Counted from the first letter of the stretch, positions 43,017 through 56,248 are shown. The stretch: 64,000 nucleotides of DNA from Vicinamibacteria bacterium (GCA_044229175.1 JBGATM010000001.1:24282-88281); one strand, 5' to 3'. The notes: a model not told the origin generated them from the sequence alone. A program made the numbers and translations.

Positions 43017-43102
43017 TTGGATGATTCCTCGGGAGTTGCGACGTTCCTGCGCGACGTGGTCGTGACAAAGGATACAGACGCCCGGCGCCCGCCTACGCTA
43101 CC

Positions 43103-43810: not shown

Positions 43811-43824
43811 GGGGATAGCCCTCA
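43808..43824. terminator. Candidate bidirectional hairpin built from the two convergent stop codons
   Basis: tgaggg-gatag-ccctca is a perfect 6-bp stem. TGA of the plus gene forms the left arm; tca (TGA of the minus gene) forms the right arm. Confidence 0.3.
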
Positions 43825-44934
43825 GTTCTGAAGGATGGCTTTGGCGAGCCGTTCGGCCGCGAGGGCCGACGCGATTTCGTTCGGGTGCCGATCCACGGGA
43901 TGCACCCACAGATCGGGCGCCTTTCTCGAGAGCAGCGGTGGCAGCAGATCGGCGAACTCGATGCCTCGATCTTTCGCGAAACCCGCGGTGCGGTCGTGGA
44001 TTTCCTGGAATGGATAGCCGTCGTCCCAGGGCACGAGAAGGGGCCAGAGGGCGAGGATGAACCGTCCGCCCCGATGCTTGAGGGTCGCGTCCATCTCCTT
44101 GATGTACTGACGGGTGACCACGATGCCGGTGCTGTTGAGGTCGCTGCCGAGGGCCTTGTACCAGTCGATCATGATCCGGGTATCGAGCCGGTCCTGGCGG
44201 ATCTTTCGCAGGAGAGCCAGGATCCTCAGGTCGAAGAAGCCGGACTTCGAGGCTCCTTCGGTTCGCCGGACCATGACCAGAGGACTCGACTCCAGCGGAG
44301 GCTGAGCGAGTTCCGGCTTTCGAACCGTGTCGTTGAGGGTCATCCCGTAGATCAGGATGTCCGGCTTCAACGCGAGTATCTCCCGGAACTTGTAGTACAG
44401 GTCGGGGAAGTCGCCGCTTGGAACGCCCGCGTTCAGAACTTCATAGCGCTCCGGCCGGCCCCGGTTGAGCAGCGCCTGCAGCCGGTCCGACACTCGATCC
44501 TCGAGACGCAGGCCCCACCCCATGTTGAAGGAATCGCCCATGAGGACCACCCGGGTGATTCCCTCCCGCTTCTCCTTGAACTCCGGCCCGAGGTAGACGA
44601 GCGAATTGAAGGGCTGCTCGACCGCGAAGTGGCGCTCCGGCAACGCCTTGTCGAGATTCCGCATGCCGATCGATTCGTAGTGGGCGAGTGTGGCCGGATC
44701 GGCGAGATCGATCTTGAAGTACCCGCGGTAATTCGTTGGATAGCACAGGAGAACCAGCGACCCCGGGCGGATGTTCCCCTCGCCGTCGGCCTTCTTGTTG
44801 GCGATCCGCACCACGGGCATATTGGGGGCCGGGCCCAGCAGGCCGAGTCGCAGCGCGCCCTCCACCAGCGTGAGGGCGAGCGGTATCGCGATGAGAAAAG
44901 GAGCCACGAGCCCCGCCACCCGTCGAATTGCCAT
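43822..44934 (-). CDS. SGNH/GDSL-hydrolase-family protein, TM-anchored (AlgJ/AlgX/DltD-like)
   Basis: N-terminal TM (MAIRRVAGLVAPFLIAIPLALTL) and a VVLMGDSFNMGWG block (GDSx nucleophile). Confidence 0.7.
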   Translation of the reverse strand: MAIRRVAGLVAPFLIAIPLALTLVEGALRLGLLGPAPNMPVVRIANKKADGEGNIRPGSLVLLCYPTNYRGYFKIDLADPATLAHYESIGMRNLDKALPERHFAVEQPFNSLVYLGPEFKEKREGITRVVLMGDSFNMGWGLRLEDRVSDRLQALLNRGRPERYEVLNAGVPSGDFPDLYYKFREILALKPDILIYGMTLNDTVRKPELAQPPLESSPLVMVRRTEGASKSGFFDLRILALLRKIRQDRLDTRIMIDWYKALGSDLNSTGIVVTRQYIKEMDATLKHRGGRFILALWPLLVPWDDGYPFQEIHDRTAGFAKDRGIEFADLLPPLLSRKAPDLWVHPVDRHPNEIASALAAERLAKAILQN

Positions 44935-44990
44935 CTCGCTGCAACATATAACAGCTATCGTTCGCCCGTCCTTTTCGCCGCCTCCCGCTC

Positions 44991-46028
44991 ATGTCCTCCC
45001 GCCTTCGACAAGCCGCGTCCACCCTGGTTCCGGTTCTTTCCGCCCTGGTCGTGCTCGCCGTCCTCGCGGAGGCGGCAACCCGCTTCCTGAACCGGTCGGG
45101 GGAGATCTACGACGTTGAAATGTACCGGTACTCCCGCCTCCTCAAGGAGGACGCGCCGCCCGAGGCTCCCGCGATGCATCACTGGCACCGCAAGAACGCG
45201 GAGGCCACCCTCCAGGGTGTCTCGATCCGCACGAACGAACTGCGGATGCGCGACAAGCCTCGAACCGAAAAGCCGGTCCCGGGGATCCGGCGGATTCTGG
45301 TCATGGGCGATTCCATCACCCTCGGCTGGGGCGTGCCTCAGGAACGCAGCTACAGCGCGGTGCTCGAGGCCCGGTTGGCGGAGCGTGGCGAGGGCCGCTA
45401 CGAAGTCCTGAATGCCGGTGTGGGGAACTACACACTCTCCCGGATGATCGGGTACTACGATTTCGCGCTGCAGCGGCTGGAGCCGGAGACCGTCGTCCTG
45501 GCCTTCTATCTCACCAACGCGAGCCGGGAGCAGGAATCCTCCCTGGCCCGCCTGCTGGATACGCCGCTGCACTTTCCGGTTTTTCTCTGGTCGCGCGGGC
45601 TGCGCGTCTACTCGCGATTCTCGAAGGCCGCGAGCTTCCGCGATTACTACCTCGATCTCTATCAGGACGGGGGATCCGAGTACGAGGTGTTCAAGGGGCA
45701 GTTGCGCGAGTTCATCGGCCGGGTGCGCGCGGAGAAGCGGAACCTCCTCCTGGTGAACCTCCCGGATGTCCGCTACGCGTCCACGAAGCCGTATCCGTTT
45801 CAAGCCGTCTCCGACCGCGTGCTCGCGATCGGACGCGACGCGGGTGCTTCGACCCTCGATCTGACCGGGAGCGTTTCGGACCTTCCACCCGAGGTCGCGG
45901 TGAATTCCATCGAGGACCGGCATCCGGCCGCGCTTGCTCATCAGCGGTTCGCCGACGCTATTCTTGACGCCTTGCGCGCGGCCGGCTTCGTCTCGATGCG
46001 ACCCGAATCCCAGGGAGAAATGAAATGA
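44991..46028 (+). CDS. SGNH/GDSL-hydrolase-family protein, TM-anchored (second paralog)
   Basis: N-terminal TM and an ILVMGDSITLGWG block. It is divergent from the first SGNH gene. Confidence 0.7.
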   Translation: MSSRLRQAASTLVPVLSALVVLAVLAEAATRFLNRSGEIYDVEMYRYSRLLKEDAPPEAPAMHHWHRKNAEATLQGVSIRTNELRMRDKPRTEKPVPGIRRILVMGDSITLGWGVPQERSYSAVLEARLAERGEGRYEVLNAGVGNYTLSRMIGYYDFALQRLEPETVVLAFYLTNASREQESSLARLLDTPLHFPVFLWSRGLRVYSRFSKAASFRDYYLDLYQDGGSEYEVFKGQLREFIGRVRAEKRNLLLVNLPDVRYASTKPYPFQAVSDRVLAIGRDAGASTLDLTGSVSDLPPEVAVNSIEDRHPAALAHQRFADAILDALRAAGFVSMRPESQGEMK

Positions 46029-46147
46029 GTTCGTTCTCGAAGAAAGTGTTCCTCCTGACCTTGGGGATAGCCCTCTTGCTCGCGGGCGGTCTGTATTTCC
46101 TTTCCCGGTCGTCGGGCGACCAGCCCTTCAGCTACGCGATCCAATGA
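46025..46147 (+). CDS. Unannotated 40-aa single-TM micro-protein (DltX-like?)
   Basis: MSSFSKKVFLLTLGIALLLAGGLYFLSRSSGDQPFSYAIQ. Its ATG overlaps the upstream stop (ATGA) and its stop overlaps the downstream ATG (ATGA). It is absent from the ORF track because it is under 60 aa. Confidence 0.45.
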   Translation: MSSFSKKVFLLTLGIALLLAGGLYFLSRSSGDQPFSYAIQ

Positions 46148-47280
46148 AGCGGGCGCTCGGCGCCCTCCTGGCTCTGGTCTTTGGCCTGGCCCTGGCCGAG
46201 ATCGCGGTTCGCCTGACCGCGCCCGACCGTTTTGGCTCGCTGCAGCTCCTCCCCTACGACGTCGTGGAGCCCGTGACCGCGGGCATGCGCATCAACGAGG
46301 CCACGAGCTATCTGGTCTTCGAACCCGAACTCGGGTGGGAGGTCGGGCCGAACCGCCATTCCCTGAACGGGCTCTACAACTCGGACGGATGGGGCGCGCG
46401 CGTATCCGTTTCGGCGCGCGAGGGTGTGACGCCCTGGGCGACCGCGTTCGGCGACTCCTTCACCCACGGCGACGATGTGCGCGACGAGGAGACCTGGGCG
46501 GCCCGGCTCGGCGCGTTGGGCCTCCCCACCGTCAACCTCGGCGTGCCCGGTTATGGCGTCGACCAGGCCTGGCTTCGCTATCGGAAACTGAAAGATCGGG
46601 TTCGCTCGCGTGTCGTCCTGATCGGCGTGATGGCCGACAACATCGCGCGCCACCTCAACCGGTATCGGCCGTTCATCACGCCTTCCGAGCGGGTCTTCTT
46701 AGTCAAGCCCAGGTTCGAAATGAGTGAGGGCCGGCTTCGGCTCGTGCCTTCTCCGTTTCAGCGGTTCGACGATTACGCAAGCCCGCCCGAGATCCTCCGA
46801 TCGGCGCTTCGGGAGGTGGGGCTCAAGGACCGCTTCTTCGATCCGCGGTTCTACGAGTCGAGCCCGCTCGATCGATCGAAGCTGTTCCGGATCGCCCGGA
46901 CCCTTCGGCTCGACCCCGCGCGGCACGCGGACTGGAGGCCGCTCTACGCGGACGAGGCCGCGGTGGAGCTGACTCTCGCCATCGTTCGGAGCTTCGTCGA
47001 AGAGGTGCGAGGCGACGGCCGCGAGCCCGTGGTGGTCTTCATCCCCGACCGGAGCGTGGCGCAAGACGTCGCTGCGGGCCGAGTCCCGCCCACCACCGCT
47101 CTTCTCGATCGATTGAAGGCACTCGGCTGTCCGGTCGCGGATCTGACCGCCCCGGTCGCCCGATTTGCTTCGAAGGCGGAGGCCCCCGCCGCTTTTCTGC
47201 CCCACTATTCGCCCGCTCTTTCCGAGGCGGTGGCGAACTACATCGCGGACTGGAAGAAGACGGAGAAGAGTCTTCCGTAG
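46144..47280 (+). CDS. SGNH/GDSL-hydrolase-family protein, TM-anchored, DltD-sized (third paralog)
   Basis: N-terminal TM (MKRALGALLALVFGLALAEIAV) and an AFGDSFTHGDD block. Length is 378 aa. Its 3' end overlaps the convergent MBOAT gene by 43 bp. Confidence 0.65.
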   Translation: MKRALGALLALVFGLALAEIAVRLTAPDRFGSLQLLPYDVVEPVTAGMRINEATSYLVFEPELGWEVGPNRHSLNGLYNSDGWGARVSVSAREGVTPWATAFGDSFTHGDDVRDEETWAARLGALGLPTVNLGVPGYGVDQAWLRYRKLKDRVRSRVVLIGVMADNIARHLNRYRPFITPSERVFLVKPRFEMSEGRLRLVPSPFQRFDDYASPPEILRSALREVGLKDRFFDPRFYESSPLDRSKLFRIARTLRLDPARHADWRPLYADEAAVELTLAIVRSFVEEVRGDGREPVVVFIPDRSVAQDVAAGRVPPTTALLDRLKALGCPVADLTAPVARFASKAEAPAAFLPHYSPALSEAVANYIADWKKTEKSLP

Positions 47281-48383
47281 ACCTCGACGCTGTCGGTGAG
47301 CGTGAACCGGAACGGTACCCAGAGCAGAGTGACGCCCAGGAAGGTCACGAGAATGGCTCCCGCGCGGTAGGCCGGCTGAGACTGAAGCTTCATCCGCTTT
47401 CGAGCGGGCAGGAGGGTCAGGAGTTTTTGCCGGTGGAACTGGTGAGCGGCGAGAAAGACCCCGTGCCCGAGGCCCCACAAGGCGAAGGACAAGCGGTCTC
47501 CGTGCCACATGCCGCACAGGGTCATGGTCGCGAGCGAGGCGAGGCTTCCGGTCAGCAGCGGGCGCTCGGCCAGCCATTTCACGTTCAAGGCCCGGCCCGA
47601 AAGAGGCATGAAGACCTGGTCGCGCAAAAACTGGCTGAGTGAAATGTGCCAGCGCGTCCAGAACTCGCTGATGCTTGTCGAGAGATAGGGCCAGTTGAAG
47701 TTCTCTCCGATGGAGTAGCCGAAAAGCCGCGAGGCGCCAATGGCGAGATCGCTGTAGGCGGAGAAGTCGAGGTAGAGAAAAAGGCTGTAGGCGAGGAGGC
47801 CTGCCCAGAGTTCCGCCGAGGGCGCGGTCCGGTTGAAGTTCGTGTCCGAGAAGGCCCGGAGAGGCTCCACCAGGGCGAGCTTCTTGGCGAGGCCGGTGGC
47901 GATGCGAAGCAGGCTCGCGAACAACTCGGTGCGGGAGAGTGTTTCCGGGACCACGCCCTTCGCGAAGCGAGCGTACGGTTCGATGGGACCGGAGAGAAAG
48001 GTCGGCGGGAAGAGCGCGTATTCGAGCGCCTTCCCCACGGGGAGCGGATCCGCGGCCTTCGAGGCGGCGCGGCACAGGAGGATCAGGCGGAAGGAAACGT
48101 AGGACAGTCCGACCACCTGAAACGCCGGGAGGTGCGCGTACTTGTTGAGGAGCAGACCGAGGAGGGCGAGGCCGATGGCCACCGTGATCCGAAAGGGTCC
48201 CGGGACGAAGCGCAGGGTCAGCAACACGGCCAGAACCAGCGCGAAGTTGATCGCGACCGAGGCCGCCATCGTCCCGTACAAGGCGAGACCGAAGAGCAGG
48301 AGGGAGGCCGCTCGATACACGGGAGGGACGATCTTCCAGTAGAGGACCGCGAAGACCAGGACCGCGAGTGTTCCTGCGATCAC
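47238..48383 (-). CDS. MBOAT-family membrane O-acyltransferase (DltB/AlgI/PatA-like)
   Basis: Polytopic, with the conserved MBOAT His region (WTRWHISLSQFLRDQVFMPL) and WHGDR near the C-terminus. Length is 381 aa. Confidence 0.9.
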   Translation of the reverse strand: MIAGTLAVLVFAVLYWKIVPPVYRAASLLLFGLALYGTMAASVAINFALVLAVLLTLRFVPGPFRITVAIGLALLGLLLNKYAHLPAFQVVGLSYVSFRLILLCRAASKAADPLPVGKALEYALFPPTFLSGPIEPYARFAKGVVPETLSRTELFASLLRIATGLAKKLALVEPLRAFSDTNFNRTAPSAELWAGLLAYSLFLYLDFSAYSDLAIGASRLFGYSIGENFNWPYLSTSISEFWTRWHISLSQFLRDQVFMPLSGRALNVKWLAERPLLTGSLASLATMTLCGMWHGDRLSFALWGLGHGVFLAAHQFHRQKLLTLLPARKRMKLQSQPAYRAGAILVTFLGVTLLWVPFRFTLTDSVEVYGRLFSVFFQSAM

Positions 48384-50059
48384 CCGGCTTCTCCCCGGTG
48401 CGATGCGAGGTACGCGTTCCGATTGTCATTGCGGGCGATCTTGCCGCTCGAGGTCTTGATCAGGTGGCCTTCCTTCACCACGAGCACCTCGGAAAGGGCC
48501 AGATCCATCTGCTGCAAGACGGATTGAACGATCTCTCTCCGGATGGCTCGAGCGCGCACGGGATCGTCGGCCTCCGGACTCTCCACCATGGCGACCGCGC
48601 TCTCCGTCCCCTTCGCTTCGGAGCGGGCGCCAAAGGCGACCACGCGGCCGGCCTTGACTCCTCGCACCGATCCCGCGATCCGCTCGACCTCGTTGGGGAG
48701 GAACTTGCGGCCGCCGACCACGATCAGGTCGTTGTCCCGCCCGAGAACGTACAGTTCGCCGTCCTGGAGGAAACCCAGGTCGCGCGTGAAGTACCACCCA
48801 TCGGCTCGACGAGCCGCGGTCTCCTCGGGCAGACCGAGGTACTCGGCGAAGAGGAAAGGCCCAGAGATCGCGATCTCGCCCACCACACCCTCGCTCACCT
48901 CCCGCCGTCCCTCGTCCACGATTCGGATCCCCACATCACGGATCGCCCGGCCCGACGATGCGAGGACGCGGCGGGTGCTGGGGGCGGGCGCCACCGCGAG
49001 CGGACGGCCTCCGGGTTCGAGACGGGTTCCATCGACATCGACCCGTCGCGGACCGGCGCCGTCGGTCTGGGTGACCGCGAAGACGTTCTCGGCCATGGCG
49101 TACGAGGCCTGGATCGAACCGGCCCGAAAGCCGCGACTCGCGAAGGCTTCGACGAAGCGGTCCATGGACGAGGGCATCACCACCTCCGAGCAGTTCACAA
49201 TCGCGCGAATGCCCTCGAGGGAGGAGGGAGGGACGGCGCCGGCTGCCGCGCCGTGGCGATCCGCGAGAAGGGCGAAGGCGAAGTTCGGCCACCAGGAGAG
49301 GGAAGCCTGCGCCGCCCCCATGTCCTCCACGAATCCGAGGGGATTCAGGATGAAGGACTCGGGCGTCATCGAGCGGCACGAGACTCCGTGGCTGAGCGGC
49401 AGCAGAAACGAGGTCAGAAGCCCCATGTCGTGATAGAGCGGAAGCCAGGTCGCGATGAGGTCGCGGGCGGGGTCGAGGCGGATGGCATTCGCATAGGCGG
49501 TCAGGTGATCGAGGACCGCGTCGTGGGTCAGGGCGACACCCTTGGGCACTCCCGTGCTTCCCGAGGAATGCTGCAGGAAGGCGATCGCCGACGACGGCTC
49601 GGGAGCCCTTCCCACCTGCGACTCCGCCTGCAGATCGGTCACGTCGATCCATCGGACCGCCCGGGTCGTCATTCCGAGCAGGCGTTCCCGCACTTCCTTC
49701 GAAGCCACCACCACGTCGGTCTGGTAGCGGTCGAGGAGCGCTTCGAGGTTTCGCACGTACGTGGGCACGTGCGTCTTGAACGTGGGCAGCGAGAGGTTGG
49801 CGGGCACGAGGTCGGCGGCCATGGCGGCCACGAAACTCGTCCACAGCTCCGGCGAGGTCGGACACAGCACCGGGACGACTTGCCCATGCCCGAGGCCCGA
49901 TCGCTTCAGCCGAAGCGCCGTCCCGGCGATGCGGTGCGCGAGGGCGTTCGCCTCGATCGTCTCCGGAGAGGCGCCCGCGAAGGAATACGCCGCCCGGCAG
50001 TCTCTCGAGGTGAGGGACCGAAGGATGGCGGCGGGGAGCGACTCTTTCGGGTTGCTCAA
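48380..50059 (-). CDS. AMP-dependent synthetase/ligase, fatty-acyl-AMP-ligase-like adenylating enzyme (DltA role)
   Basis: Adenylation core motif FLQHSSGSTGVPKGV. Length is 559 aa. Its stop overlaps the MBOAT start. Confidence 0.85.
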   Translation of the reverse strand: MSNPKESLPAAILRSLTSRDCRAAYSFAGASPETIEANALAHRIAGTALRLKRSGLGHGQVVPVLCPTSPELWTSFVAAMAADLVPANLSLPTFKTHVPTYVRNLEALLDRYQTDVVVASKEVRERLLGMTTRAVRWIDVTDLQAESQVGRAPEPSSAIAFLQHSSGSTGVPKGVALTHDAVLDHLTAYANAIRLDPARDLIATWLPLYHDMGLLTSFLLPLSHGVSCRSMTPESFILNPLGFVEDMGAAQASLSWWPNFAFALLADRHGAAAGAVPPSSLEGIRAIVNCSEVVMPSSMDRFVEAFASRGFRAGSIQASYAMAENVFAVTQTDGAGPRRVDVDGTRLEPGGRPLAVAPAPSTRRVLASSGRAIRDVGIRIVDEGRREVSEGVVGEIAISGPFLFAEYLGLPEETAARRADGWYFTRDLGFLQDGELYVLGRDNDLIVVGGRKFLPNEVERIAGSVRGVKAGRVVAFGARSEAKGTESAVAMVESPEADDPVRARAIRREIVQSVLQQMDLALSEVLVVKEGHLIKTSSGKIARNDNRNAYLASHRGEAG

Positions 50060-50197
50060 AACGTGGCGTACATGAACGCCGTTTCGCCGCCCTGGTCGAG
50101 GGCGAGGGCCAGGAAGAGGATGACACCCACGAGGACGATCAGGAACGTGGTCTGAATCGGCCGGGGCAGGCCGTCGAGATACTGCGCCGGGGCGAAG

Positions 50198-50440
50198 TCA
50201 GCGCGCAGCGGCATCGGTGAGAGCCACGCACTTGTCTATGGTGTCGAGGTCTTCGAGCCCCACCCCGTCGGTCGCCAGATTGAACTCGGTGTGGAGGAAG
50301 GCCAGGAGCCGCACCGCGGAGAAGGAGTCCACGAGACCCGAACTGAAGAGCGCTTCGTCACCCCCGAGATCGAGGTCGGGCTCGTTCAGGAGATCCTTCG
50401 CCACGAACTGACGGATTCGCTGCCGTCGCTCCTCGCTCAT
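50198..50440 (-). CDS. Acyl/peptidyl carrier protein (DltC-like)
   Basis: 80 aa from ATG (90 aa if the GTG at 50470 is used). The phosphopantetheine-attachment site GLVDSFSAVRLLAFL resembles the DltC IIDSF...LLL motif. Confidence 0.75.
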   Translation of the reverse strand: MSEERRQRIRQFVAKDLLNEPDLDLGGDEALFSSGLVDSFSAVRLLAFLHTEFNLATDGVGLEDLDTIDKCVALTDAAAR

Positions 50441-50470
50441 GGGCAAAGTATAGGAGACGGCCGAAGGCAC

Positions 50471-51016
50471 TCAGGCCGGGGGATATTTCGCCGCGAGCTT
50501 CTCCATGGTCTTCATTCCGCGGAAGGTGGCCTTGACCTTGAGGGTTCGTTCGAGGACCGCGTTCGAGATCTTCGATTGGCTCTGCCGCGTCCGACAGATC
50601 CAGTAGAGCTCCGCGCCGTTTGCGTGGAAGTCGTCGATGTCGGTCCGGAGCCCGGTGAGCGCGGCCCGGGTCGCGGCGGGAAGCGGCTCCTTGAGGAGGC
50701 CGACATTGAGCGCGGCCGCGGCTTCCATCTCCGCGGCAGGAAACGGACGGTAGCGGGCGATGGACGACACGCCCTCGAGGGACCGGACGAACGTCGTGAC
50801 CTCGTACCCGAGAACGTCTTCCAGCATCCGCTCGATCTTCCTCTCGATCGCGGCGGGTTCCTTGAGGCGTGTCTCGAAGATCACGTTGCCACTCGCGATG
50901 AAGGTCTCGACCTTCGCGAAGCCCAGGTCCTCGAATCTGGCCCGCAGGACCTCCATCTTCACCACATGACTGCCGCCCACGTTGATGGCGCGCAGAAAGG
51001 CCACGTATCGAGCCAT
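50471..51016 (-). CDS. DUF1697-domain protein
   Basis: MARYVAFLRAINVGGSHVVKMEVLRARFEDLGF...SGNVIF is typical of DUF1697. It sits 3 bp downstream of the potCD stop. Confidence 0.7.
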   Translation of the reverse strand: MARYVAFLRAINVGGSHVVKMEVLRARFEDLGFAKVETFIASGNVIFETRLKEPAAIERKIERMLEDVLGYEVTTFVRSLEGVSSIARYRPFPAAEMEAAAALNVGLLKEPLPAATRAALTGLRTDIDDFHANGAELYWICRTRQSQSKISNAVLERTLKVKATFRGMKTMEKLAAKYPPA

Positions 51017-51019
51017 GAG

Positions 51020-52822
51020 CTAGTCCTTTCCCGATTTCACTTCGGTCCACAGCCGATCGTGCAGGGCCGCGGCCTCGCCCAGATCCTCGAACGGCCGGAG
51101 CTGCTTCATCTGCGCCTCCGACGGGAACATGGCGCGGTTGTCCTGGACGGCTTGCGGGAGCAGCGCCCGCCCCGCGCGCGACGGCGTCGAGTAGCCCGTG
51201 GTGAGACAGATCTCCGCCGCGATCTCCGGTTCCATCACGAAGTCGAGGAATTCAAGGGCGAGGTCGGCATGCGGGGCGTTTTTCGGTATGGCGAGATTGT
51301 CCACGAACACCATGGCCCCTTCCCGGGGGATGGTGAAGCGCACCCAGGGCGCCTCCTTCATGATCTTCGCGATCTGCCCGGACCACGACTGCGCGAGCAG
51401 CACCTCGCCCGAGAGAACCGCATCGTCGAAACTCGCCGAGTCGTAAGCCCGCACCAGCGGCTTCTGGTCGATGAGGACCTTCTGGATCCGTGCGAGCGAC
51501 CCGGGGTCCCGCGTGTTCGGGTTGAGACCGAGCAGCAGCGCGCCGAAACCGATGGCCTCCCGGGCGTCGTCGAGCATGAGGATCCGGCCCTTCCACCTCG
51601 GATCGAGGAGCGCGCTCCACGAGTCGACCGATGCGACCTGTCGGGAGTCGGACGCGATCCCGGTCACCCCCCACAGGTAGGGAATGGAGAAGCGATTCTC
51701 CCGGTCCCAGTTCTGGCCGAGGAAGTCGGGCGCGGTGCCTCCGAGGTGGGGCAATCGGTCGCGGTCGAGCGCTTGGAGAACCCCCGCGCGGATCAGGGGC
51801 GCGAGGGTGTAGGTCGGGGGACAGATCACGTCGTAGCCGGGGTTGCCCGCGAGCATCTTCGACAGCAGCGCCTCGGCAGAGTCGTATACGTCGAGGTTCA
51901 CCTTCGCTCCGGTTCGCTCCTCGAACCTGCGAATGGTCTCGGGGGCGATGTAGTTCGACCACAGGTAGAGATTGAGCTCGCGCTTTCCCTGATGCTGCGA
52001 TCTCGCGAGGACCACCGGGGTGGCGAGGATCGACAATCCCGCGGCCATGGCCAGCATGGAGAGGCGAGGCCGGGACTCGATGAGCGCGGTCGCGAAGAGC
52101 AGGAGGGTGGTGGCCGCGAGCAGGATGGTCGAGGCGGCGGCGATCTCCGGAGAGAGCGAGCTCTTGAGCAGCGAGTAGATGTAGACGGGCAGGGTGGTTC
52201 CGCCCGCCCCCGAGACGAAGGAGGTCACCACGTAGTCGTCGATGGAGAGCGAGAAGGTGAGCAGGGCCGCGGCCACGAGGCCGGGGGCGAGGAGCGGCAG
52301 GGTGACCCGACGAAACACCTGCCCGGCCGAGGCGCCCAGGTCGGCGGCGGCCTCCTCGACATCCACCGGCAAGGCGTGCGCGCGCGCGCGGATCACGAAG
52401 AACGCGAAGGAGAGCGAGAACACCACGTGCGCCGCCACCACCGTGCCGAGGCCGAGGGGAATGAAGAGCCGGGAGAAGAAGGCGAGAAGCGAGGCTCCGA
52501 ACACGATCTCCGGGGTGACCAGGGGCAGGAGGAAGAGCGAGGCGGCCCGCGCGCGGGTCCTCTCGGGGGCGCCTCTCGATCCGAGCGCGGCCGCGGTCGC
52601 GAGGATCACGACGATGAAAGTCGCGGAAGCGCCCACGATCAGGGAGTTCTCCATCGCTCTCATCAGGGGCCCGTTGTCGAGCAGCTTCCGGTACCAGATG
52701 AGGCTCGGTCCGTCGAACGATGCGGACAGGCGCGAGCGCGAGAACGAGAACACCGCGAGGGCGAGAACGGGAAGGTGAAGGAAGAGCAACGTCCCCACCA
52801 GCAGGGCCTGGAGCCGCTTCAT
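51020..52822 (-). CDS. Spermidine/putrescine ABC transporter permease (PotC-like) fused to a periplasmic polyamine-binding protein (PotD-like)
   Basis: Start at MKRLQALLVG (aa 228 of the ORF). A PotC 6-TM core with EAA-loop (AAADLGAS..FRRVTLPL) is followed by a hydrophobic segment (MLAMAAGLSILATPVVLA) and then a PotD-type solute-binding domain. The two parts share one frame with no stop. Length is 600 aa. Confidence 0.75.
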   Translation of the reverse strand: MKRLQALLVGTLLFLHLPVLALAVFSFSRSRLSASFDGPSLIWYRKLLDNGPLMRAMENSLIVGASATFIVVILATAAALGSRGAPERTRARAASLFLLPLVTPEIVFGASLLAFFSRLFIPLGLGTVVAAHVVFSLSFAFFVIRARAHALPVDVEEAAADLGASAGQVFRRVTLPLLAPGLVAAALLTFSLSIDDYVVTSFVSGAGGTTLPVYIYSLLKSSLSPEIAAASTILLAATTLLLFATALIESRPRLSMLAMAAGLSILATPVVLARSQHQGKRELNLYLWSNYIAPETIRRFEERTGAKVNLDVYDSAEALLSKMLAGNPGYDVICPPTYTLAPLIRAGVLQALDRDRLPHLGGTAPDFLGQNWDRENRFSIPYLWGVTGIASDSRQVASVDSWSALLDPRWKGRILMLDDAREAIGFGALLLGLNPNTRDPGSLARIQKVLIDQKPLVRAYDSASFDDAVLSGEVLLAQSWSGQIAKIMKEAPWVRFTIPREGAMVFVDNLAIPKNAPHADLALEFLDFVMEPEIAAEICLTTGYSTPSRAGRALLPQAVQDNRAMFPSEAQMKQLRPFEDLGEAAALHDRLWTEVKSGKD

Positions 52823-53604
52823 TCCTGAGCCCGGGCGAGAAAGCGGCCGAAGAGAAGGAAAGCGGAAAGCGTGAGCACGCTCAGGGTGAAGGCCATGGCC
52901 GAGCCGAAAGCCGGATCGCGGGCCGCGCCGAACTGGCTCGTGATCAGGGTGCCCACCCAGGCCGTCTTCGCCCCCCCGAGGAGATCCGGCACGAGCACGG
53001 ACCCGAGCGCGGGCACGAACACGAGCACGCAACCGGCCACGATCCCCGGGGCGGCGATCGGGATGACCACTTTCGCGAGGGTCTTCCAGGGGCTCGCCCC
53101 CAGATCCCGGGCCGCGTCGACGAGCGACGGATCGATGCGCTCGAGCGCCGCGTAGATGGGGAGGATCATGTACGGCAGCTCGACGTAGAGCTGGCCGATG
53201 GCGACCGCGGTGGTGGTGTAGAGGAGGCTCGGCGCCGGCGATCCGAAGAAAGCGAGGATCTGAGAGAGCAGGCCTCCCGCCCGAAGGAGGAACACCCAGG
53301 CGTACAGCTTCACCAGCACCGAGGTCCACAGGGGCAGGGTGACGAGCAGGAGAAAGGGGCCGCGTGACTGCGCCGGCACCGCGCGCACCAGCGCCCAGGC
53401 CACCGGGAAGCCGACGAGCAGTGTGGCCACGGTGGTGCAAAGGGCCAGCAGCAGGCTGCGCCAGAAGATCGCGGCATAGAGCGGATCGAGGAGCCGCAGC
53501 CACACCGAGCTGTCTCCCGTGCGGGAGAGAAGCATCAGCTGGGGACAGGCGAACAGAACAAGACCGATGACGGCCGCGGGAATCAGGAGCCTTTGCGCCT
53601 TCAT
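52819..53604 (-). CDS. potB: Spermidine/putrescine ABC transporter permease (PotB-like)
   Basis: Start at MKAQRLLIPAAV (aa 147 of the ORF), overlapping the potA stop. EAA-loop DAARDLGASPWKTLAKVVIP. Length is 261 aa. Confidence 0.8.
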   Translation of the reverse strand: MKAQRLLIPAAVIGLVLFACPQLMLLSRTGDSSVWLRLLDPLYAAIFWRSLLLALCTTVATLLVGFPVAWALVRAVPAQSRGPFLLLVTLPLWTSVLVKLYAWVFLLRAGGLLSQILAFFGSPAPSLLYTTTAVAIGQLYVELPYMILPIYAALERIDPSLVDAARDLGASPWKTLAKVVIPIAAPGIVAGCVLVFVPALGSVLVPDLLGGAKTAWVGTLITSQFGAARDPAFGSAMAFTLSVLTLSAFLLFGRFLARAQE

Positions 53605-54668
53605 CTCGAGAGCGCGATCCAGCACGAGGGTTCGATATCGAGGAAGACCCGATCGCCCGCCCGCACCACTTCCCGCGGCGAGACGTTGGCGACGAGCGTG
53701 GTTTCGCCCACGTCGACCTGGCAGCGCGTGGCCTCGCCCAGGTACCGCACGTCGGTGACCGTCCCCGCGATTCCGCCCCCCGAGCGGGACAAGGAGACGT
53801 GCTCTCCGTGAAGGCCGATCGTCACCTCCGCCCCGGCAGGTAGGTCCGCGATCTCGATCCGCGTGAACCCGAGGTCCACGACGGCGCCCCCCGCCCTGTT
53901 CTCGATCACCCGTCCCTCGAGGATGTTCTCCATGCCCACCAGCCGGGCCACGTAGACGCTCGCCGGGTGCTCGAAGATCTCTTCGGGTGGCGCGTACTGA
54001 GCGATGCGACCCTCCCGCATGACCGCGATTCGCGAGGAGCACTCGATGGCCTCCTCGAGGTCGTGGGTCACCAGCACGAAGGTGATGCCGAGGGAGCGCT
54101 GGAGCTGCACCAGTTCCGAGCGCATGGCCGAGCGCAACTGGGCGTCGAGGGCGGCGAGGGGCTCGTCGAGGAGCAGGATGTCCGGCTCGAGAACGAGAGC
54201 GCGGGCGAGGGCCACGCGCTGCCCCTGGCCCCCGGAAATTTCCGAGGTCGCCCGGGAATCGAAGCCCTCGAGGTGGACGGCGCCGAGGGCTTTCGCGACC
54301 CGAGATCGGATCTCAGCATCCGGCCGGTCGCGCAGCCGCAGGCCGAAGGCCACGTTCTCGAAGACCGAAAGGTGGGGAAAGAGCGCGTAGCTCTGGAAGA
54401 CGGTGTGAACGGGCCGAAGGTGGGCTTTCATCGAGGTGACGTCTTTCCCGGAGACCTCGATCCGTCCGGAATCCACTTCATCGAGACCCGCGACGAGCCG
54501 GAGGAGGGTGGTCTTGCCGCAACCCGACGGCCCCAGCAGGGTCACGAACTCCCCGGGCTGCACGTCCAGGCTCACCCGGTCGAGCACGGGCGTGCCCCCG
54601 CGCTTCTTCGAGACGGACTCGACGGCCAGCGAGCCGCGGACTTTTTCGGAAAGAGGAGCTTCGCTCAC
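53601..54668 (-). CDS. potA: Spermidine/putrescine ABC transporter ATP-binding protein
   Basis: Walker A GPSGCGKTT, signature ISGGQGQRVALARAL, Walker B LLLDEPLAALD, plus a C-terminal TOBE-like domain. Confidence 0.9.
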   Translation of the reverse strand: MSEAPLSEKVRGSLAVESVSKKRGGTPVLDRVSLDVQPGEFVTLLGPSGCGKTTLLRLVAGLDEVDSGRIEVSGKDVTSMKAHLRPVHTVFQSYALFPHLSVFENVAFGLRLRDRPDAEIRSRVAKALGAVHLEGFDSRATSEISGGQGQRVALARALVLEPDILLLDEPLAALDAQLRSAMRSELVQLQRSLGITFVLVTHDLEEAIECSSRIAVMREGRIAQYAPPEEIFEHPASVYVARLVGMENILEGRVIENRAGGAVVDLGFTRIEIADLPAGAEVTIGLHGEHVSLSRSGGGIAGTVTDVRYLGEATRCQVDVGETTLVANVSPREVVRAGDRVFLDIEPSCWIALSR

Positions 54669-54792
54669 GATTCGCGGTAGATTATTTCTGAATGGCCTCG
54701 CTTGACTTGGGCGGCCCGCATAAAAGACAGTAGGCGTCAGGTCGCGCTCTCAGAAAGCCCGGACCGAAAGAGCCGCACAAAGGAGAATTCAG

Positions 54793-55077
54793 ATGGGTGA
54801 AGCACTTGGAATGATCGAGACCCGCGGTTTCGTGGCCCTCGTCGAGGCCTCGGACGCGATGGTCAAGGCCGCGAAGGTCGTGATCGTGGGCTGGGAGAAG
54901 ATCGGCTCGGGTTACGTGACCGTGATGTGCCGCGGCGATGTCGCGGCGGTGAAAGCGGCCACCGACGCGGGTGCGGCGGCGGCCCGCCGGGTCGGCGAGC
55001 TGGTTTCCGTCCACGTCATTCCGCGTCCGCACGACAACCTTCAGGACGTCTTCGCCATCGGCAAAGCCGGCAAGTGA
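54793..55077 (+). CDS. Bacterial microcompartment shell protein, BMC-H (PduA/CcmK/EutM family)
   Basis: [29 protein letters not shown]...VHVIPRPH aligns almost residue-for-residue with PduA. A strong SD (AAAGGAG) lies 7 nt upstream. Confidence 0.95.
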
Positions 55078-55145
55078 ACCCACTAGCGCGCGGCCTTCTG
55101 GCCTCGCGCGGCGGGTTCAGCGGAGAAGTCGAGAAGAGTTCATAG

Positions 55146-55430
55146 ATGCAGGTCGGTCGAGTTGTCGGCACTCTCGTCGCCACCCGCAAGGACGAGCGCC
55201 TGGTGGGGACGAAGCTCCTGGTCGTTCGCGTCATGGATCCCGCGTTCAAGGAAGAGCAGGGCTACGTGGTCGCGGTCGACACCGTGAACGCCGGGATCGG
55301 CGACCGGGTCATGCTCGTGGCCGGTTCATCGGCCCGCCTCGCCCAGGGCATGAAGGACGCGCCGGTCGATGCCGCCATCGTCGGAGTGGTCGATCAGGTC
55401 GAACTGGTCAAGTCCGCGACCAAGGCCTGA
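55146..55430 (+). CDS. BMC vertex protein, BMC-P (EutN/CcmL/PduN family), paralog 1
   Basis: MQVGRVVGTLVATRKDERLVGTKLLVV...DAAIVGVVD is the EutN_CcmL fold signature. Confidence 0.9.
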   Translation: MQVGRVVGTLVATRKDERLVGTKLLVVRVMDPAFKEEQGYVVAVDTVNAGIGDRVMLVAGSSARLAQGMKDAPVDAAIVGVVDQVELVKSATKA

Positions 55431-55433
55431 TCC

Positions 55434-55703
55434 ATGCAGCTCGGGATCGTGTGCGGGAACCTGGTGGCGAGCCGTAAGGACGAGCGCCTCGAGGGAATCA
55501 ACCTCCTGGTCATCCAGCCCATCCAGCCTGACGGCTCCGCCACCGGCAAGACGCTCGTCGCCACGGACGCGGTGGGCGCGGGTCCGGGCGAGAGGGTCTT
55601 CTGGGTCAAGTCGAAGGAAGCGGCAAACCCCTTCGAGCCCGTCGAGGTGCCCACCGACGCCACCATCGTGGGCATCGTGGACCTCGTCAACGTGGAGGCC
55701 TGA
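55434..55703 (+). CDS. BMC vertex protein, BMC-P, paralog 2
   Basis: MQLGIVCGNLVASRKDERLEGINLLVIQP...DATIVGIVD. It starts 4 bp after paralog 1. Confidence 0.9.
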   Translation: MQLGIVCGNLVASRKDERLEGINLLVIQPIQPDGSATGKTLVATDAVGAGPGERVFWVKSKEAANPFEPVEVPTDATIVGIVDLVNVEA

Positions 55704-55707
55704 AGGG

Positions 55708-55983
55708 ATGTTGATCGGGCGGGTGATCGGCAACGTCGTGGCCACGAAGAAGAACCTCAAGCTCGACGGCGAGAAGCTCCTGCTCGTGCAGCCCCTCGAA
55801 CTCTCGGGGGCGGCGAAGGGAACTCCCATCATCGCCATCGATCGAATGGGGGCCGGGCCGAAAGAGCGGGTCCTGTACACCCAGGATGGCCGCACCGCGC
55901 AGCAGGTCCTGGGACGGGGTGTCGCCGGGGTCGACGCCGCCATCCTCGGAGTGATCGACGAGATCGATTTCCGCCATGGATGA
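55708..55983 (+). CDS. BMC vertex protein, BMC-P, paralog 3
   Basis: Start at MLIGRVIGNVVATKKNLKLDGEKLLLVQP (aa 114 of the ORF); ...DAAILGVID. Confidence 0.85.
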   Translation: MLIGRVIGNVVATKKNLKLDGEKLLLVQPLELSGAAKGTPIIAIDRMGAGPKERVLYTQDGRTAQQVLGRGVAGVDAAILGVIDEIDFRHG

Positions 55984-56218
55984 CGCCAAGATCGACCTGA
56001 TCGCTCGCGAGGTTCTGCAAAGCCTCAAGAAGGCGCATGCCCACGACGCTCCCGCCAGCCCCTGCGCGCCCGCGAAGCCGGAACCTCAGGCCGTCGTCCC
56101 CCTGCACCCGTCCCTTCGTCTGCTTTCGGTGGCTGGCGGGGTGGTGGGATCGCCCTGCGTGATCGAGCCCGACAAGGCCTGCGTCGGCTCCTTGAAGTGC
56201 CGCACCTTCGGGCACTGA
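55976..56218 (+). CDS. Small Cys-containing protein with encapsulation-peptide-like N-terminal amphipathic helix
   Basis: MDDAKIDLIAREVLQSLKKA, then a Pro/Ala linker, then a 4-Cys C-terminus. Its ATG overlaps the BMC-P3 stop by 8 nt (ATGGATGA). Confidence 0.4.
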   Translation: MDDAKIDLIAREVLQSLKKAHAHDAPASPCAPAKPEPQAVVPLHPSLRLLSVAGGVVGSPCVIEPDKACVGSLKCRTFGH

Positions 56219-56220
56219 GA

Positions 56221-56236
56221 GGCGCGGGTTCGCGCC
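56221..56236. terminator. Candidate GC-rich hairpin between convergent genes
   Basis: ggcgcg-ggtt-cgcgcc is a perfect 6-bp stem with a 4-nt loop. It begins 3 nt after the small-ORF stop and 13 nt before the convergent metallophosphoesterase stop. No U-tract follows. Confidence 0.3.
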
Positions 56237-56248
56237 CCCCGGGCGGCT

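What the first reader, a model, noticed from the sequence alone, without database searches (positions are those of the whole stretch)
50471..54668. Polyamine ABC importer genes co-oriented and tightly packed with the carrier/ligase/MBOAT block
On the minus strand the order is potA - potB - potC::potD - DUF1697 - carrier protein - FAAL-like ligase - MBOAT.
- The junctions are 4-bp overlaps or 3-bp gaps, except a 138-bp gap before the ligase.
- This predicts co-transcription of a spermidine/putrescine-type importer with an acylation machine.
- The polyamine may be the acceptor or the acyl-group partner (e.g. acyl-polyamine or polyamine-decorated envelope polymer), or the linkage may be coincidental. 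Either outcome is testable.
- DUF1697 has no known function and sits exactly at the junction.
Basis: inference. Interest (0 to 1): 0.55.

Follow-up and report, generated by a model that had tools for sequence, protein, structure and literature searches.

The report
Polyamine importer beside inserted envelope-acylation cassette
A polyamine-type importer operon in an uncultured soil acidobacterium is followed directly by a gene cassette for acylating a cell-envelope polymer, but related genomes show the two are separate modules that came together in one small lineage, so the cassette is the more interesting part.

Summary
On the minus strand potA, potB, a potC::potD fusion, DUF1697, a carrier protein, a FAAL-like ligase and a DltB-like MBOAT are co-oriented and tightly packed. 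It holds a conserved 52-aa membrane microprotein gene ending FMYATF, which fits the FxYxxF "acyl shuttle" motif of DltX.

The proposed functional link between polyamine import and acylation is not supported:
- The arrangement recurs in three related Vicinamibacteria contigs (ligase 61-76% identical).
- Four other relatives share the same colinear neighbourhood and lack the cassette. Three of them keep pot-DUF1697.
- 0 of 160 more distant ligase loci carry potB, potC, potD or DUF1697.
- The PotD ligand-contact positions are the same with and without the cassette.

The ~6.6-kb block (43822-50440) is therefore an accessory insertion downstream of a resident pot-DUF1697 operon. It holds the carrier, microprotein, ligase, MBOAT, three SGNH proteins and a second microprotein ending FSYAIQ. 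Co-transcription is possible, but an invariant CTATACT block 6 nt before the carrier gene hints at a separate promoter.

The cassette looks like a Dlt-type acyl relay with a FAAL-like ligase in place of DltA. I rate it a new variant of a known kind.

The parts
53601..54668 (-). potA-like ABC ATPase (355 aa)
   Evidence: Pfam ABC_tran 123 bits and TOBE_2. The best NCBIfam hit is PotA at 347.6 bits, below the 482 cut-off.
52819..53604 (-). potB-like permease (261 aa); 4-bp overlap with potA
   Evidence: Pfam BPD_transp_1. NCBIfam PotB 202 bits, below the 348 cut-off. Start codon mapped.
51020..52822 (-). potC::potD fusion (600 aa): permease, an extra transmembrane tether, then a PotD/PotF-type binding domain
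   Evidence: Pfam BPD_transp_1 (residues 78-245) and SBP_bac_8 (297-566). PDB PotD/PotF structures match at E 1e-50 to 1e-59. The E. coli PotD positions E171, D257, D168, W34, Y37, Y85, W229 and Y293 are kept; E36 is N and W255 is F. 488 fusion homologues were found, and the named ones are Vicinamibacteria.
50471..51016 (-). DUF1697 protein (181 aa); last gene of the resident pot operon
50441..50470 (-). DUF1697-carrier spacer (30 nt) holding the invariant CTATACT block; left boundary of the inserted cassette
   Evidence: In an alignment of four lineages, the only invariant run in the spacer is CTATACT, 6 nt upstream of the ATG. The fold is not significant, z = 0.13. No consensus promoter or terminator was called.
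50198..50440 (-). Acyl carrier protein (80 aa, DltC-like role)
   Evidence: Pfam PP-binding 23.1 bits against a 20.8 cut-off. Weak NCBIfam hits to the ACP_for_OlsHI and DltC models, both below cut-off. The LVDSFS serine motif is visible in the sequence.
50056..50214 (-).
   Evidence: Translation. It is called as a gene in all related contigs. The C-terminal 18 aa (LALALD[Q/S]GGETAFMYATF) are nearly invariant, differing only at one Q/S position, while the DNA differs mostly at third codon positions. The FxYxxF acyl-shuttle motif is defined in PMC12148441. There is no Pfam or NCBIfam hit.
48380..50059 (-). FAAL-like adenylating ligase (559 aa)
   Evidence: Pfam AMP-binding 144 bits. NCBIfam fatty acyl-AMP ligase and long-chain ligase subfamilies at 304-324 bits, below their cut-offs. 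The best PDB hit is the E. coli FAAL 3PBK at E 4e-52, and the alignment runs without deletion through the FAAL insertion region.
47238..48383 (-). Short DltB-type MBOAT (381 aa) with no C-terminal shuttle motif
   Evidence: Pfam MBOAT 81.5 bits. The only NCBIfam hit is LTA_dltB at 172 bits, below the 375 cut-off. The only PDB hits are DltB 6BUG and 8JEM at E 1e-25, with the WHISLS and GMWHG histidine motifs conserved.
46144..47280 (+). SGNH/GDSL protein 1 (378 aa, N-terminal membrane anchor); convergent with the MBOAT, 43-bp 3' overlap
   Evidence: Pfam Lipase_GDSL_2 28.6 bits, below the 32.9 cut-off. GDS motif and N-terminal hydrophobic helix are visible in the sequence. Conserved in L007, L009 and L010.
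46025..46147 (+). Microprotein 2 (40 aa, one transmembrane helix, C-terminus PFSYAIQ), translationally coupled between two SGNH genes
   Evidence: Conserved in L007 (PFSYAIK), L009 (PFSYAIQ) and L010 (PFTYVLQ), with 16-17 synonymous against 6-7 non-synonymous codon changes. Weak DUF5989 hit at 20 bits, below the 27 cut-off.
44991..46028 (+). SGNH/GDSL protein 2 (345 aa, N-terminal anchor)
   Evidence: Pfam Lipase_GDSL_2 46.5 bits. Weak NCBIfam hit to the LA_2486 family GDSL esterase.
43822..44934 (-). SGNH/GDSL protein 3 (370 aa, N-terminal anchor); right boundary of the cassette
   Evidence: Pfam Lipase_GDSL_2 34.2 bits. Present in L007 and L009. In cassette-less L174 and L173 the next window gene (43103-43810) directly follows DUF1697 or potCD.

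Best explanation
Two independent modules lie end to end.

Module 1, the resident operon. It comprises potA, potB, potC::potD and DUF1697. It is a PotABCD-type ABC importer for a di- or polyamine. The binding protein is tethered to the permease, and the operon ends with a cytoplasmic DUF1697 protein of unknown, probably ligand-binding, role. Its position next to a BMC shell mini-locus is ancestral in this Vicinamibacteria lineage.

Module 2, the accessory cassette (about 43822-50440, ~6.6 kb). It is present in only some members of the lineage and works like the Dlt pathway. The steps below are inferred, not shown:
1. The FAAL-like ligase adenylates a carboxylic acid, probably a fatty or other organic acid and not D-alanine, and loads it on the 80-aa carrier protein.
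2. The short DltB-type MBOAT passes the acyl group across the membrane to the tyrosine in the C-terminal FMYATF motif of the 52-aa microprotein.
3. Membrane-anchored SGNH proteins take the acyl group and esterify an envelope or exopolysaccharide polymer.
4. The second microprotein (FSYAIQ), encoded between two SGNH genes, may be a second shuttle serving a particular SGNH transferase.

The cassette landed, or was retained, directly downstream of DUF1697. It may be read through from the pot promoter or use its own promoter at the conserved CTATACT block. Nothing indicates that polyamine is its substrate or acceptor.

Shown: gene content, motifs, and the presence/absence pattern across relatives. 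Inferred: the chemistry, the acyl group, the acceptor and the transcription units.
For: - Gene families.
- The microprotein carries the FxYxxF motif. It and microprotein 2 are the only ORFs in the 64-kb window with one transmembrane helix plus a C-terminus fitting F.Y..[FYWLIMQ]. The motif's role is described in PMC12148441.
- Purifying selection acts on both microproteins.
- The cassette is absent from the colinear relatives L173, L174, L176 and L177, where the flanking genes abut.
- The cassette core occurs elsewhere without pot or DUF1697. That holds for 0 of 160 distant loci. L010 and the P0025 locus lie in GT4/flippase/PMT_2 polysaccharide clusters.
- At least 24 distant loci, mainly Chloroflexota, combine a carrier, ligase and MBOAT with a micro-ORF ending WIYQGF. 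18 others have the motif fused to a long MBOAT.
- The PotD ligand positions do not differ between cassette-bearing and cassette-less lineages.
- In a PotD-domain NJ tree the basal lineages have pot-DUF1697 only.
- The DUF1697 fold has no acyltransferase similarity.
Against: - Within the cassette-bearing subclade the 29-37-bp DUF1697-carrier spacer and the co-orientation are maintained in all four lineages. No terminator is detectable. Co-expression with pot is therefore plausible and could be selected.
- Only eight lineages were sampled, all from metagenome contigs. The NJ tree has no support values, and L176 is a frameshift-ridden assembly.
- The acyl group and the acceptor are unknown.
- The microproteins do not hit the Pfam DltX model, so the shuttle role rests on motif, topology and gene position.
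Confidence: 0.7

Rival explanations
1. Regulatory coupling. The cassette was recruited into the pot operon so that polyamine uptake and envelope acylation are co-expressed as one response, for example surface-charge or stress homeostasis. No metabolite is shared between them.
For: - Co-orientation, a 30-bp spacer and no terminator-like site or stable hairpin at the junction.
- The arrangement is retained in four lineages down to 61-64% ligase identity.
- By analogy from general knowledge, Dlt-type modification and polyamines both affect envelope charge.
Against: - The cassette is missing from closely related genomes that keep pot-DUF1697.
- Retention in four lineages is explained by common descent from one insertion.
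- Half the cassette cannot belong to the pot transcript: SGNH2, microprotein 2 and SGNH1 are on the other strand, and SGNH3 follows a divergent 56-bp gap.
- The conserved CTATACT block suggests a separate promoter.
Confidence: 0.17
2. Substrate supply. The Pot-like transporter imports the acid that the ligase activates, such as an omega-amino acid or another amine-bearing carboxylate. That compound is then loaded on the carrier and attached to the envelope polymer, giving a D-alanine-like cationic decoration.
For: - The NCBIfam PotA, PotB and PotD equivalog cut-offs are not reached, so specificity is open.
- E36 of E. coli PotD, one of the three acidic amine anchors, is replaced by Asn.
- The ligase substrate is unknown.
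Against: - The same binding-site residues occur in cassette-less relatives.
- The pot operon is older than the cassette at this site.
- Cassette homologues elsewhere never have a pot-type transporter within 10 kb.
- The ligase is FAAL-like, not amino-acid-type.
Confidence: 0.06
3. Polyamine as acceptor. Imported polyamine is N-acylated in the cytoplasm from the acyl-carrier protein, yielding acyl-polyamines or a polyamine-decorated lipid or polymer, with DUF1697 as the missing transferase.
For: DUF1697 has no known function and sits between the two modules.
Against: - The DUF1697 model matches only 2HIY and generic ferredoxin-like/ACT/HMA domains, with no acyltransferase or condensation fold.
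- DUF1697 occurs with pot in genomes that have no carrier or ligase, and it is absent from all 160 other cassette loci.
- The MBOAT, shuttle and SGNH parts point to an extracytoplasmic acceptor (PMC12148441).
Confidence: 0.04

Closest known systems
Dlt pathway of Gram-positive bacteria (DltX-DltA-DltB-DltC-DltD; D-alanylation of teichoic acids)
   Same: - A carrier protein loaded by an adenylating ligase.
- A short MBOAT whose only PDB and NCBIfam relatives are DltB.
- A separate single-pass microprotein ending in FxYxxF (FMYATF), encoded in the same operon.
- Membrane-anchored SGNH proteins as the presumed final transferases.
   Different: - The ligase is FAAL-like, not DltA, so the cargo is probably not D-alanine.
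- The host is a diderm acidobacterium, which is not expected to have teichoic acids.
- There are three SGNH paralogues and a second microprotein ending FSYAIQ.
- The microproteins do not match the Pfam DltX profile.
- All equivalog cut-offs are missed.
PatA/PatB, AlgI/AlgJ/AlgX and related MBOAT-SGNH polymer O-acetylation systems
   Same: An MBOAT plus an SGNH transferase, with an acyl-tyrosine shuttle motif (PMC12148441). Distant ligase-linked loci show the fused form, a long MBOAT ending FMYRNF or similar.
   Different: Those systems use acyl-CoA directly, carry the motif on the MBOAT itself, and have no carrier protein or ligase. Here the motif is on a separate microprotein and the donor is a dedicated acyl-carrier protein.
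E. coli PotABCD / PotFGHI polyamine ABC importers
   Same: - Gene order: ATPase, permease, permease, binding protein.
- PDB PotD/PotF match at E 1e-50 to 1e-59.
- 9 of the 13 E. coli PotD ligand-contact residues are identical, including E171 and D257.
   Different: - PotC and PotD are fused into one 600-aa protein. The NCBIfam model of the Mycoplasma permease/binding-protein fusion MMSYN1_0195 also hits, below cut-off.
- E36 is Asn and W255 is Phe.
- The equivalog cut-offs are not reached.
- A DUF1697 gene is appended to the operon.
DUF1697 (PF08002; structure 2HIY, S. pneumoniae SP0830)
   Different: No function is known for any member; the paper library has two incidental mentions. The linkage to a pot operon seen here is limited to this lineage in the loci I sampled.

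Membership tests
PotABCD-type polyamine ABC importer | Four-component architecture: ATPase, two permeases and a PotD/PotF-family binding protein in one operon | tested here: met
   Pfam and NCBIfam domain hits. 4-bp overlaps between the genes. PotC and PotD are fused.
PotABCD-type polyamine ABC importer | Scores above the curated equivalog cut-offs for PotA, PotB, PotC and PotD | tested here: not met
   PotA 347.6 against 482; PotB 202.3 against 348; PotD 200.3 against 582; PotC 171.1 against 326.
PotABCD-type polyamine ABC importer | Acidic and aromatic ligand-contact residues of E. coli PotD (Glu36, Glu171 and Asp257 contact the three amines) | tested here: inconclusive
   E171, D257, D168, W34, Y37, Y85, W229 and Y293 are kept. 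E36 is N, W255 is F, S83 is P and Q327 is F (alignment; table). The role of the three acids comes from PMC4096761. The rest of the residue list is from memory of Sugiyama et al. 1996.
PotABCD-type polyamine ABC importer | Polyamine binding and uptake activity | not testable with these tools
   Needs ITC or DSF of the PotD domain and uptake assays.
Dlt-type acyl relay (carrier, MBOAT, shuttle microprotein, SGNH) | Short DltB-type MBOAT with the conserved catalytic histidine and no C-terminal shuttle motif | tested here: met
   381 aa. The only PDB hits are DltB 6BUG and 8JEM, with WHISLS and GMWHG conserved. The C-terminus lacks FxYxxF. NCBIfam LTA_dltB 172 bits is below the 375 cut-off, so it is not an equivalog.
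Dlt-type acyl relay (carrier, MBOAT, shuttle microprotein, SGNH) | Separate single-pass microprotein with a C-terminal FxYxxF acyl-shuttle motif encoded in the operon | tested here: met
   The 52-aa ORF ends FMYATF and has one hydrophobic helix. It is conserved in L007-L009, with FLYIGF in L010 and FVYAGF in L011. The motif is defined in PMC12148441.
Dlt-type acyl relay (carrier, MBOAT, shuttle microprotein, SGNH) | Sequence-profile membership of the microprotein in the DltX family | tested here: not met
   No Pfam or NCBIfam hit for microprotein 1, even at E up to 10.
Dlt-type acyl relay (carrier, MBOAT, shuttle microprotein, SGNH) | DltA-type D-alanine--carrier protein ligase | tested here: not met
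   The best matches are FAAL and long-chain acyl ligase families and PDB 3PBK. No DltA model is among the top hits.
Dlt-type acyl relay (carrier, MBOAT, shuttle microprotein, SGNH) | Dedicated phosphopantetheinyl carrier protein | tested here: met
   PP-binding 23.1 bits against a 20.8 cut-off. The DltC model scores only 21.9 against 68.
Dlt-type acyl relay (carrier, MBOAT, shuttle microprotein, SGNH) | Membrane-anchored SGNH transferase (DltD role) | tested here: inconclusive
   Three SGNH/GDSL proteins have N-terminal hydrophobic anchors and GDS motifs. None hits a DltD model. Transferase activity was not tested.
Dlt-type acyl relay (carrier, MBOAT, shuttle microprotein, SGNH) | Acyl-tyrosine intermediate and acylated polymer product | not testable with these tools
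   Needs biochemistry.
Fatty acyl-AMP ligase (FAAL) | Closest relatives are FAALs, and the FAAL-specific insertion is retained | tested here: inconclusive
   Top PDB hit 3PBK at E 4e-52. The alignment is continuous through 3PBK residues ~350-385. NCBIfam FAAL subfamily 304 bits is below the 600 cut-off. The insertion boundaries are recalled from memory.
DUF1697 (PF08002) | Pfam gathering score, and the 2HIY fold | tested here: met
Single operon potA-to-MBOAT (co-transcription) | Same strand, short or overlapping junctions, no intrinsic terminator | tested here: met
Single operon potA-to-MBOAT (co-transcription) | No internal promoter; one continuous transcript | not testable with these tools
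   An invariant CTATACT block 6 nt upstream of the carrier ATG in four lineages is a hint of an internal -10 element. Transcript data are needed.
Conserved functional gene neighbourhood (pot + cassette) | Linkage maintained across divergent lineages and in both directions | tested here: not met
   The linkage is present in 4 lineages. It is absent from 4 colinear relatives and from 160 of 160 distant cassette or ligase loci.

The most novel reading that the evidence does not exclude
The cassette, not the pot linkage, may be the discovery. It could represent an uncharacterised and widespread family of carrier-protein-dependent MBOAT acyl relays outside the Firmicutes, seen here in Acidobacteriota and Chloroflexota. 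In this family a FAAL-like ligase supplies a fatty or other organic acyl group. A free-standing DltX-like microprotein ferries it to SGNH transferases that decorate an exopolysaccharide or LPS. In the Vicinamibacteria version, two different shuttle microproteins (FMYATF and FSYAIQ) may route the acyl group to different SGNH transferases. This would contradict the published generalisation that MBOAT/SGNH pathways other than Dlt lack a carrier protein and a DltX-like microprotein (PMC12148441).
Probability: 0.35. Interest if true: 0.6.

Novelty: new variant of a known kind. Interest (0 to 1): 0.35.

Why it matters
The pot-acylation adjacency is a lineage-specific juxtaposition. It should not be used to infer acyl-polyamine chemistry or a function for DUF1697. 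Tight packing alone would have misled here.

The cassette is worth more attention for three reasons:
- It extends the recently solved Dlt/PatAB acyl-tyrosine shuttle mechanism to diderm soil phyla.
- It has a different activating enzyme, and so probably a different and possibly lipidic cargo.
- It has an unusual double-microprotein, triple-SGNH layout.

If the relay model is confirmed, it would identify a new type of envelope or exopolysaccharide acylation in abundant but uncultured Acidobacteria. It would also give a simple sequence signature for finding such systems: a micro-ORF with one transmembrane helix ending [F/W]xYxx[F/Q], next to an MBOAT, a carrier protein and a ligase.

The only robust new lead for DUF1697 is its stable linkage to a polyamine-type importer in this lineage.

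Tried and rejected
- **Genome collection scan.** The ligase alignment returned 80 loci, none closer than 42% identity. The lineage is not represented, so the scan served only as a negative survey for pot and DUF1697.
- **Metagenome collection scan.** The window ligase again returned only relatives at 49% identity or lower.
- **Whole-library HMMER search with the 52-aa microprotein.** Four hits: two are true family members, one is a repetitive 564-aa protein and one is a 1813-aa protein with no aligned stretch. The protein is too short for this approach.
- **Rfam scan of 42000-57000 at E up to 0.1.** Nothing found, so no riboswitch or leader RNA.
- **Consensus promoter and terminator scan.** No sigma-70 site, and two terminator-like sites, fewer than chance and neither at a gene junction.
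- **Repeat search across the cassette borders.** No flanking direct or inverted repeats that would mark a mobile element. The longest inverted pair is SGNH paralogy.
- **Base composition.** Not anomalous across the cassette.
- **Raw tblastx synteny.** Too noisy at 66% GC; replaced by ORF-level tblastn.
- **The weak NCBIfam hit of the carrier to ACP_for_OlsHI.** I followed it to the planctomycete ornithine-lipid papers and dropped it. The score is 31 bits against a 130 cut-off, and no GH3-like OlsH is present.
- **Literature searches.** Neither "MBOAT + fatty acyl-AMP ligase + acyl carrier protein" nor DltX-like/DltB-like terms found a description of such cassettes. DUF1697 has only two incidental mentions.
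- **DUF1697 as an acyltransferase.** Rejected on its fold.


Full report
**1. What is in the sequence**

The window has about 66% GC. By exact protein look-up it comes from an uncultured Vicinamibacteria (Acidobacteriota) genome. The potC::potD protein belongs to a 90%-identity cluster whose named members are all "Vicinamibacteria bacterium" MAGs.

On the minus strand I confirm the following genes:
- potA, 54668-53601: ABC_tran + TOBE_2.
- potB, 53604-52819.
- A 600-aa potC::potD fusion, 52822-51020: BPD_transp_1 followed by SBP_bac_8.
- DUF1697, 51016-50471: 125 bits.
- A carrier protein, 50440-50198: PP-binding.
- A FAAL-like ligase, 50059-48380.
- An MBOAT, 48383-47238.

One point is wrong. 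The "138-bp gap" before the ligase holds a 52-aa ORF (50214-50056). It overlaps the carrier gene by 17 bp and the ligase by 4 bp. Its translation is MPLRADFAPAQYLDGLPRPIQTTFLIVLVGVILFLALALDQGGETAFMYATF. Gene callers find it in every related contig. Its C-terminal 18 residues are the same in lineages whose ligases are only 61-76% identical, apart from one Q/S position. In that part the DNA differences fall mainly on third codon positions. It is a real gene.

**2. What the acylation block is**

The MBOAT is short, at 381 aa. Its only solved-structure relatives are DltB (6BUG and 8JEM, E 1e-25), with the WH..S and G.WHG histidine motifs conserved. Its only NCBIfam hit is the DltB model, below cut-off.

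The microprotein has one hydrophobic helix and ends in FMYATF. According to PMC12148441, FxYxxF is the "acyl shuttle" motif. In the Dlt pathway it sits on the microprotein DltX, and its tyrosine carries the acyl group from DltB to the SGNH protein DltD. In other MBOAT systems the motif is fused to the C-terminus of a longer MBOAT.

The block therefore has the split, Dlt-type architecture of carrier, ligase, short MBOAT and free microprotein. The ligase, however, is not DltA. Its best relatives are fatty acyl-AMP ligases (PDB 3PBK, E 4e-52; NCBIfam FAAL and long-chain ligase subfamilies). It aligns without deletion through the region of 3PBK that holds the FAAL insertion.

Three SGNH/GDSL proteins lie next to the MBOAT: 46144-47280 (+), 44991-46028 (+) and 43822-44934 (-). 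Each has an N-terminal membrane anchor and a GDS motif.

Between the two plus-strand SGNH genes is a second microprotein (46025-46147), joined to each by a 4-bp overlap. Its sequence is MSSFSKKVFLLTLGIALLLAGGLYFLSRSSGDQPFSYAIQ. It is conserved in L007, L009 and L010, with 16-17 synonymous against 6-7 non-synonymous codon changes.

These two ORFs are the only ones in the 64-kb window that combine a transmembrane helix with a C-terminus fitting F.Y..[FYWLIMQ]. Neither hits the Pfam DltX model. Microprotein 2 hits DUF5989 weakly, below cut-off.

**3. Is the pot linkage conserved?**

*Forward test, anchored on the ligase.* Three contigs whose ligases are 61-76% identical have the same order:
- L009 shows potA-potB-potCD-DUF1697-carrier-microprotein-ligase-MBOAT.
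- L008 is the same up to the ligase, with a methyltransferase inserted between potCD and DUF1697. The called ligase is truncated at 353 aa and no MBOAT is found on the contig.
- L007 starts within potCD.

At 50% identity or lower the core carrier-microprotein-ligase-MBOAT persists without pot or DUF1697:
- L010 and the P0025 locus lie among GT4 glycosyltransferases, a flippase and PMT_2 glycosyltransferases.
- L011 lies elsewhere.

Across 160 further loci from the genome and metagenome collections (ligase 31-49% identical, 2.17 Mb), 72 have an MBOAT and 71 a carrier protein. None has potB, potC, potD or DUF1697.

*Reverse test, anchored on potCD.* The fusion is common in Vicinamibacteria, with 488 homologues. 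I looked at four relatives with PotCD 76-85% identical. ORF-level comparison of L173 and L174 with the window, and the called gene order in L176 and L177, show the same colinear neighbourhood. It runs TonB-dependent receptor, (metallophosphatase in three of the four) small ORF, three BMC-P genes and one BMC-H gene, then divergently potA-potB-potCD, and further on LpxB and the genes beyond it. None of the four has the cassette:
- In L174 and L177, DUF1697 is followed directly by the homologue of window gene 43103-43810 and then by the S9 peptidases.
- L176 has a beta-lactamase-family gene at that spot.
- L173 lacks DUF1697 and the peptidases as well.

Window 43822-50440 is therefore a ~6.6-kb presence/absence block at a variable site downstream of a resident pot(-DUF1697) operon.

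A rough NJ tree of the PotD domain has no support values, and L176 is a partial sequence. It places the DUF1697-only lineages L174 and L177 basally. It interleaves cassette-bearing lineages with the cassette-less L173 and L176. That pattern suggests one gain and later losses.

The 13 positions that contact spermidine in E. coli PotD are identical in the window, L007, L008, L009 and cassette-less L173.

I found no flanking repeats and no compositional anomaly marking the block.

**4. The transporter and DUF1697**

The PotD domain matches solved PotD and PotF structures at E 1e-50 to 1e-59. Of the three acidic residues that hold the three amines of spermidine in E. coli PotD (Glu36, Glu171, Asp257; PMC4096761), Glu171 and Asp257 are kept and Glu36 is Asn. 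Most of the aromatic box is kept, with W255 replaced by Phe. A di- or polyamine ligand is plausible. The exact ligand is open, and all NCBIfam equivalog cut-offs are missed.

**5. Transcription**

No consensus terminator or promoter lies at any gene junction in 46500-55500. There is no Rfam element. The DUF1697-carrier spacer has no significant structure (z = 0.13). Read-through from pot into the carrier-to-MBOAT genes is therefore plausible.

Two observations limit the single-operon picture:
- The spacer diverges among the four lineages except for an invariant CTATACT ending 6 nt before the ATG. This could be a -10 element for a leaderless or short-leader transcript. Distant cassettes (L010, L094) have a TTGACT about 30 nt before their carrier start.
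- SGNH2, microprotein 2 and SGNH1 are on the opposite strand, convergent with the MBOAT with a 43-bp 3' overlap. SGNH3 is divergent from SGNH2. The "acylation machine" is therefore at least three transcription units.

**6. Mechanism and rivals**

*Best explanation (about 0.7).* Two independent modules are juxtaposed:
- The importer takes up a polyamine-type cation.
- The cassette runs a Dlt-like relay. The ligase loads an organic or fatty acyl group on the carrier protein. The MBOAT moves it to the Tyr of the microprotein's FMYATF motif. The SGNH proteins then transfer it to an extracytoplasmic glycan. The polysaccharide-cluster context of relatives supports a glycan acceptor.
- The second microprotein may be a second shuttle.
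- All chemical steps are inferred from homology and motif.

*Rivals.*
- Selected co-regulation without shared chemistry (about 0.17).
- The transporter supplies an amine-bearing acid to the ligase (about 0.06).
- Cytoplasmic N-acylation of polyamine with DUF1697 as the transferase (about 0.04).

The last two are disfavoured by the presence/absence pattern, by the unchanged binding site, by the outward-facing topology of the relay, and by the DUF1697 fold. A polyamine also lacks a carboxylate for adenylation.

**7. Comparison with known systems, and novelty**

The pot part is an ordinary PotABCD-type system with a permease-binding protein fusion. The linkage to the cassette is a lineage-restricted accident of insertion and deserves a low score.

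The cassette is a variant of the Dlt pathway with these differences:
- A FAAL-like ligase replaces DltA.
- The host is a diderm.
- There are three SGNH proteins and two shuttle-type microproteins.

The architecture is not unique to this window. At least 24 distant loci, mostly Chloroflexota, combine a carrier, ligase and MBOAT with a micro-ORF ending WIYQGF; in L018 the order is microprotein, MBOAT, two unknown proteins, carrier, ligase. 18 further loci carry the motif fused to a long MBOAT.

PMC12148441 states that MBOAT/SGNH pathways other than Dlt lack a carrier protein and a DltX-like microprotein. I found no paper describing these cassettes in the searchable library. The original 2023 DltX paper was not in that library, so I cannot exclude that they are mentioned there.

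I rate the whole as a new variant of a known kind, with interest 0.35. The novel case is that the cassette family is a widespread uncharacterised acyl relay with a lipidic cargo. I give it probability about 0.35 and interest 0.6 if true.

Noticed in passing
window 54793-56218 (+): BMC-H 54793-55077; BMC-P 55146-55430, 55434-55703, 55708-55983; ~80-aa ORF 55976-56218: A minimal microcompartment shell locus (one BMC-H, three EutN/CcmL-type BMC-P and a small ORF) is transcribed divergently from potA across a 124-bp gap. No signature enzyme is adjacent. A metallophosphatase and a TonB-dependent receptor lie beyond it. The shell block next to pot is conserved in all relatives sampled (L001, L008, L173, L174, L176, L177).
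   Followed up: partly
window 46025-46147 (+): A second conserved 40-aa membrane microprotein ending PFSYAIQ lies between two SGNH genes, with 4-bp overlaps on both sides. The same SGNH-microprotein-SGNH trio occurs in L007, L009, L010 and the P0025 locus. It hits DUF5989 weakly, at 20 bits against a 27 cut-off.
   Followed up: partly
window 50447-50453 (-), within the DUF1697-carrier spacer: CTATACT is the only invariant run in an otherwise divergent spacer across four lineages. It ends 6 nt upstream of the carrier ATG. It may be a -10 element of a leaderless transcript.
   Followed up: partly
L018 5806-5964 and about 24 other loci (e.g. L020, L032, L041, L095, L128): Mostly Chloroflexota loci holding a carrier, a FAAL-like ligase and an MBOAT also carry a ~40-55-aa ORF ending (P)xWIYQGF just upstream of the MBOAT. 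This looks like a second, large family of DltX-like shuttle microproteins outside the Firmicutes.
   Followed up: partly
L008 7997-9046; L176 12738-13904: The site just downstream of potCD/DUF1697 is variable. A class I methyltransferase is inserted between potCD and DUF1697 in L008. A beta-lactamase-family gene follows DUF1697 in L176. The acylation cassette sits there in the window. It looks like a small insertion hot-spot.
   Followed up: no
window 47238-47280: The 3' ends of the MBOAT (-) and SGNH1 (+) genes overlap convergently by 43 bp. The same overlap appears in L002, L007 and L009.
   Followed up: no
window 51020-52822 (-): The potC::potD fusion, a binding protein tethered to the permease by an extra transmembrane helix, is the standard form in Vicinamibacteria. 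There are 488 homologues, in a tight group at 76-92% identity and a second group near 52%.
   Followed up: partly
window 39091-43016 (-): Two tandem S9-family (prolyl oligopeptidase/Tricorn-like) peptidase genes lie downstream of the cassette. They are present in L174, L176 and L177 and absent from L173.
   Followed up: no
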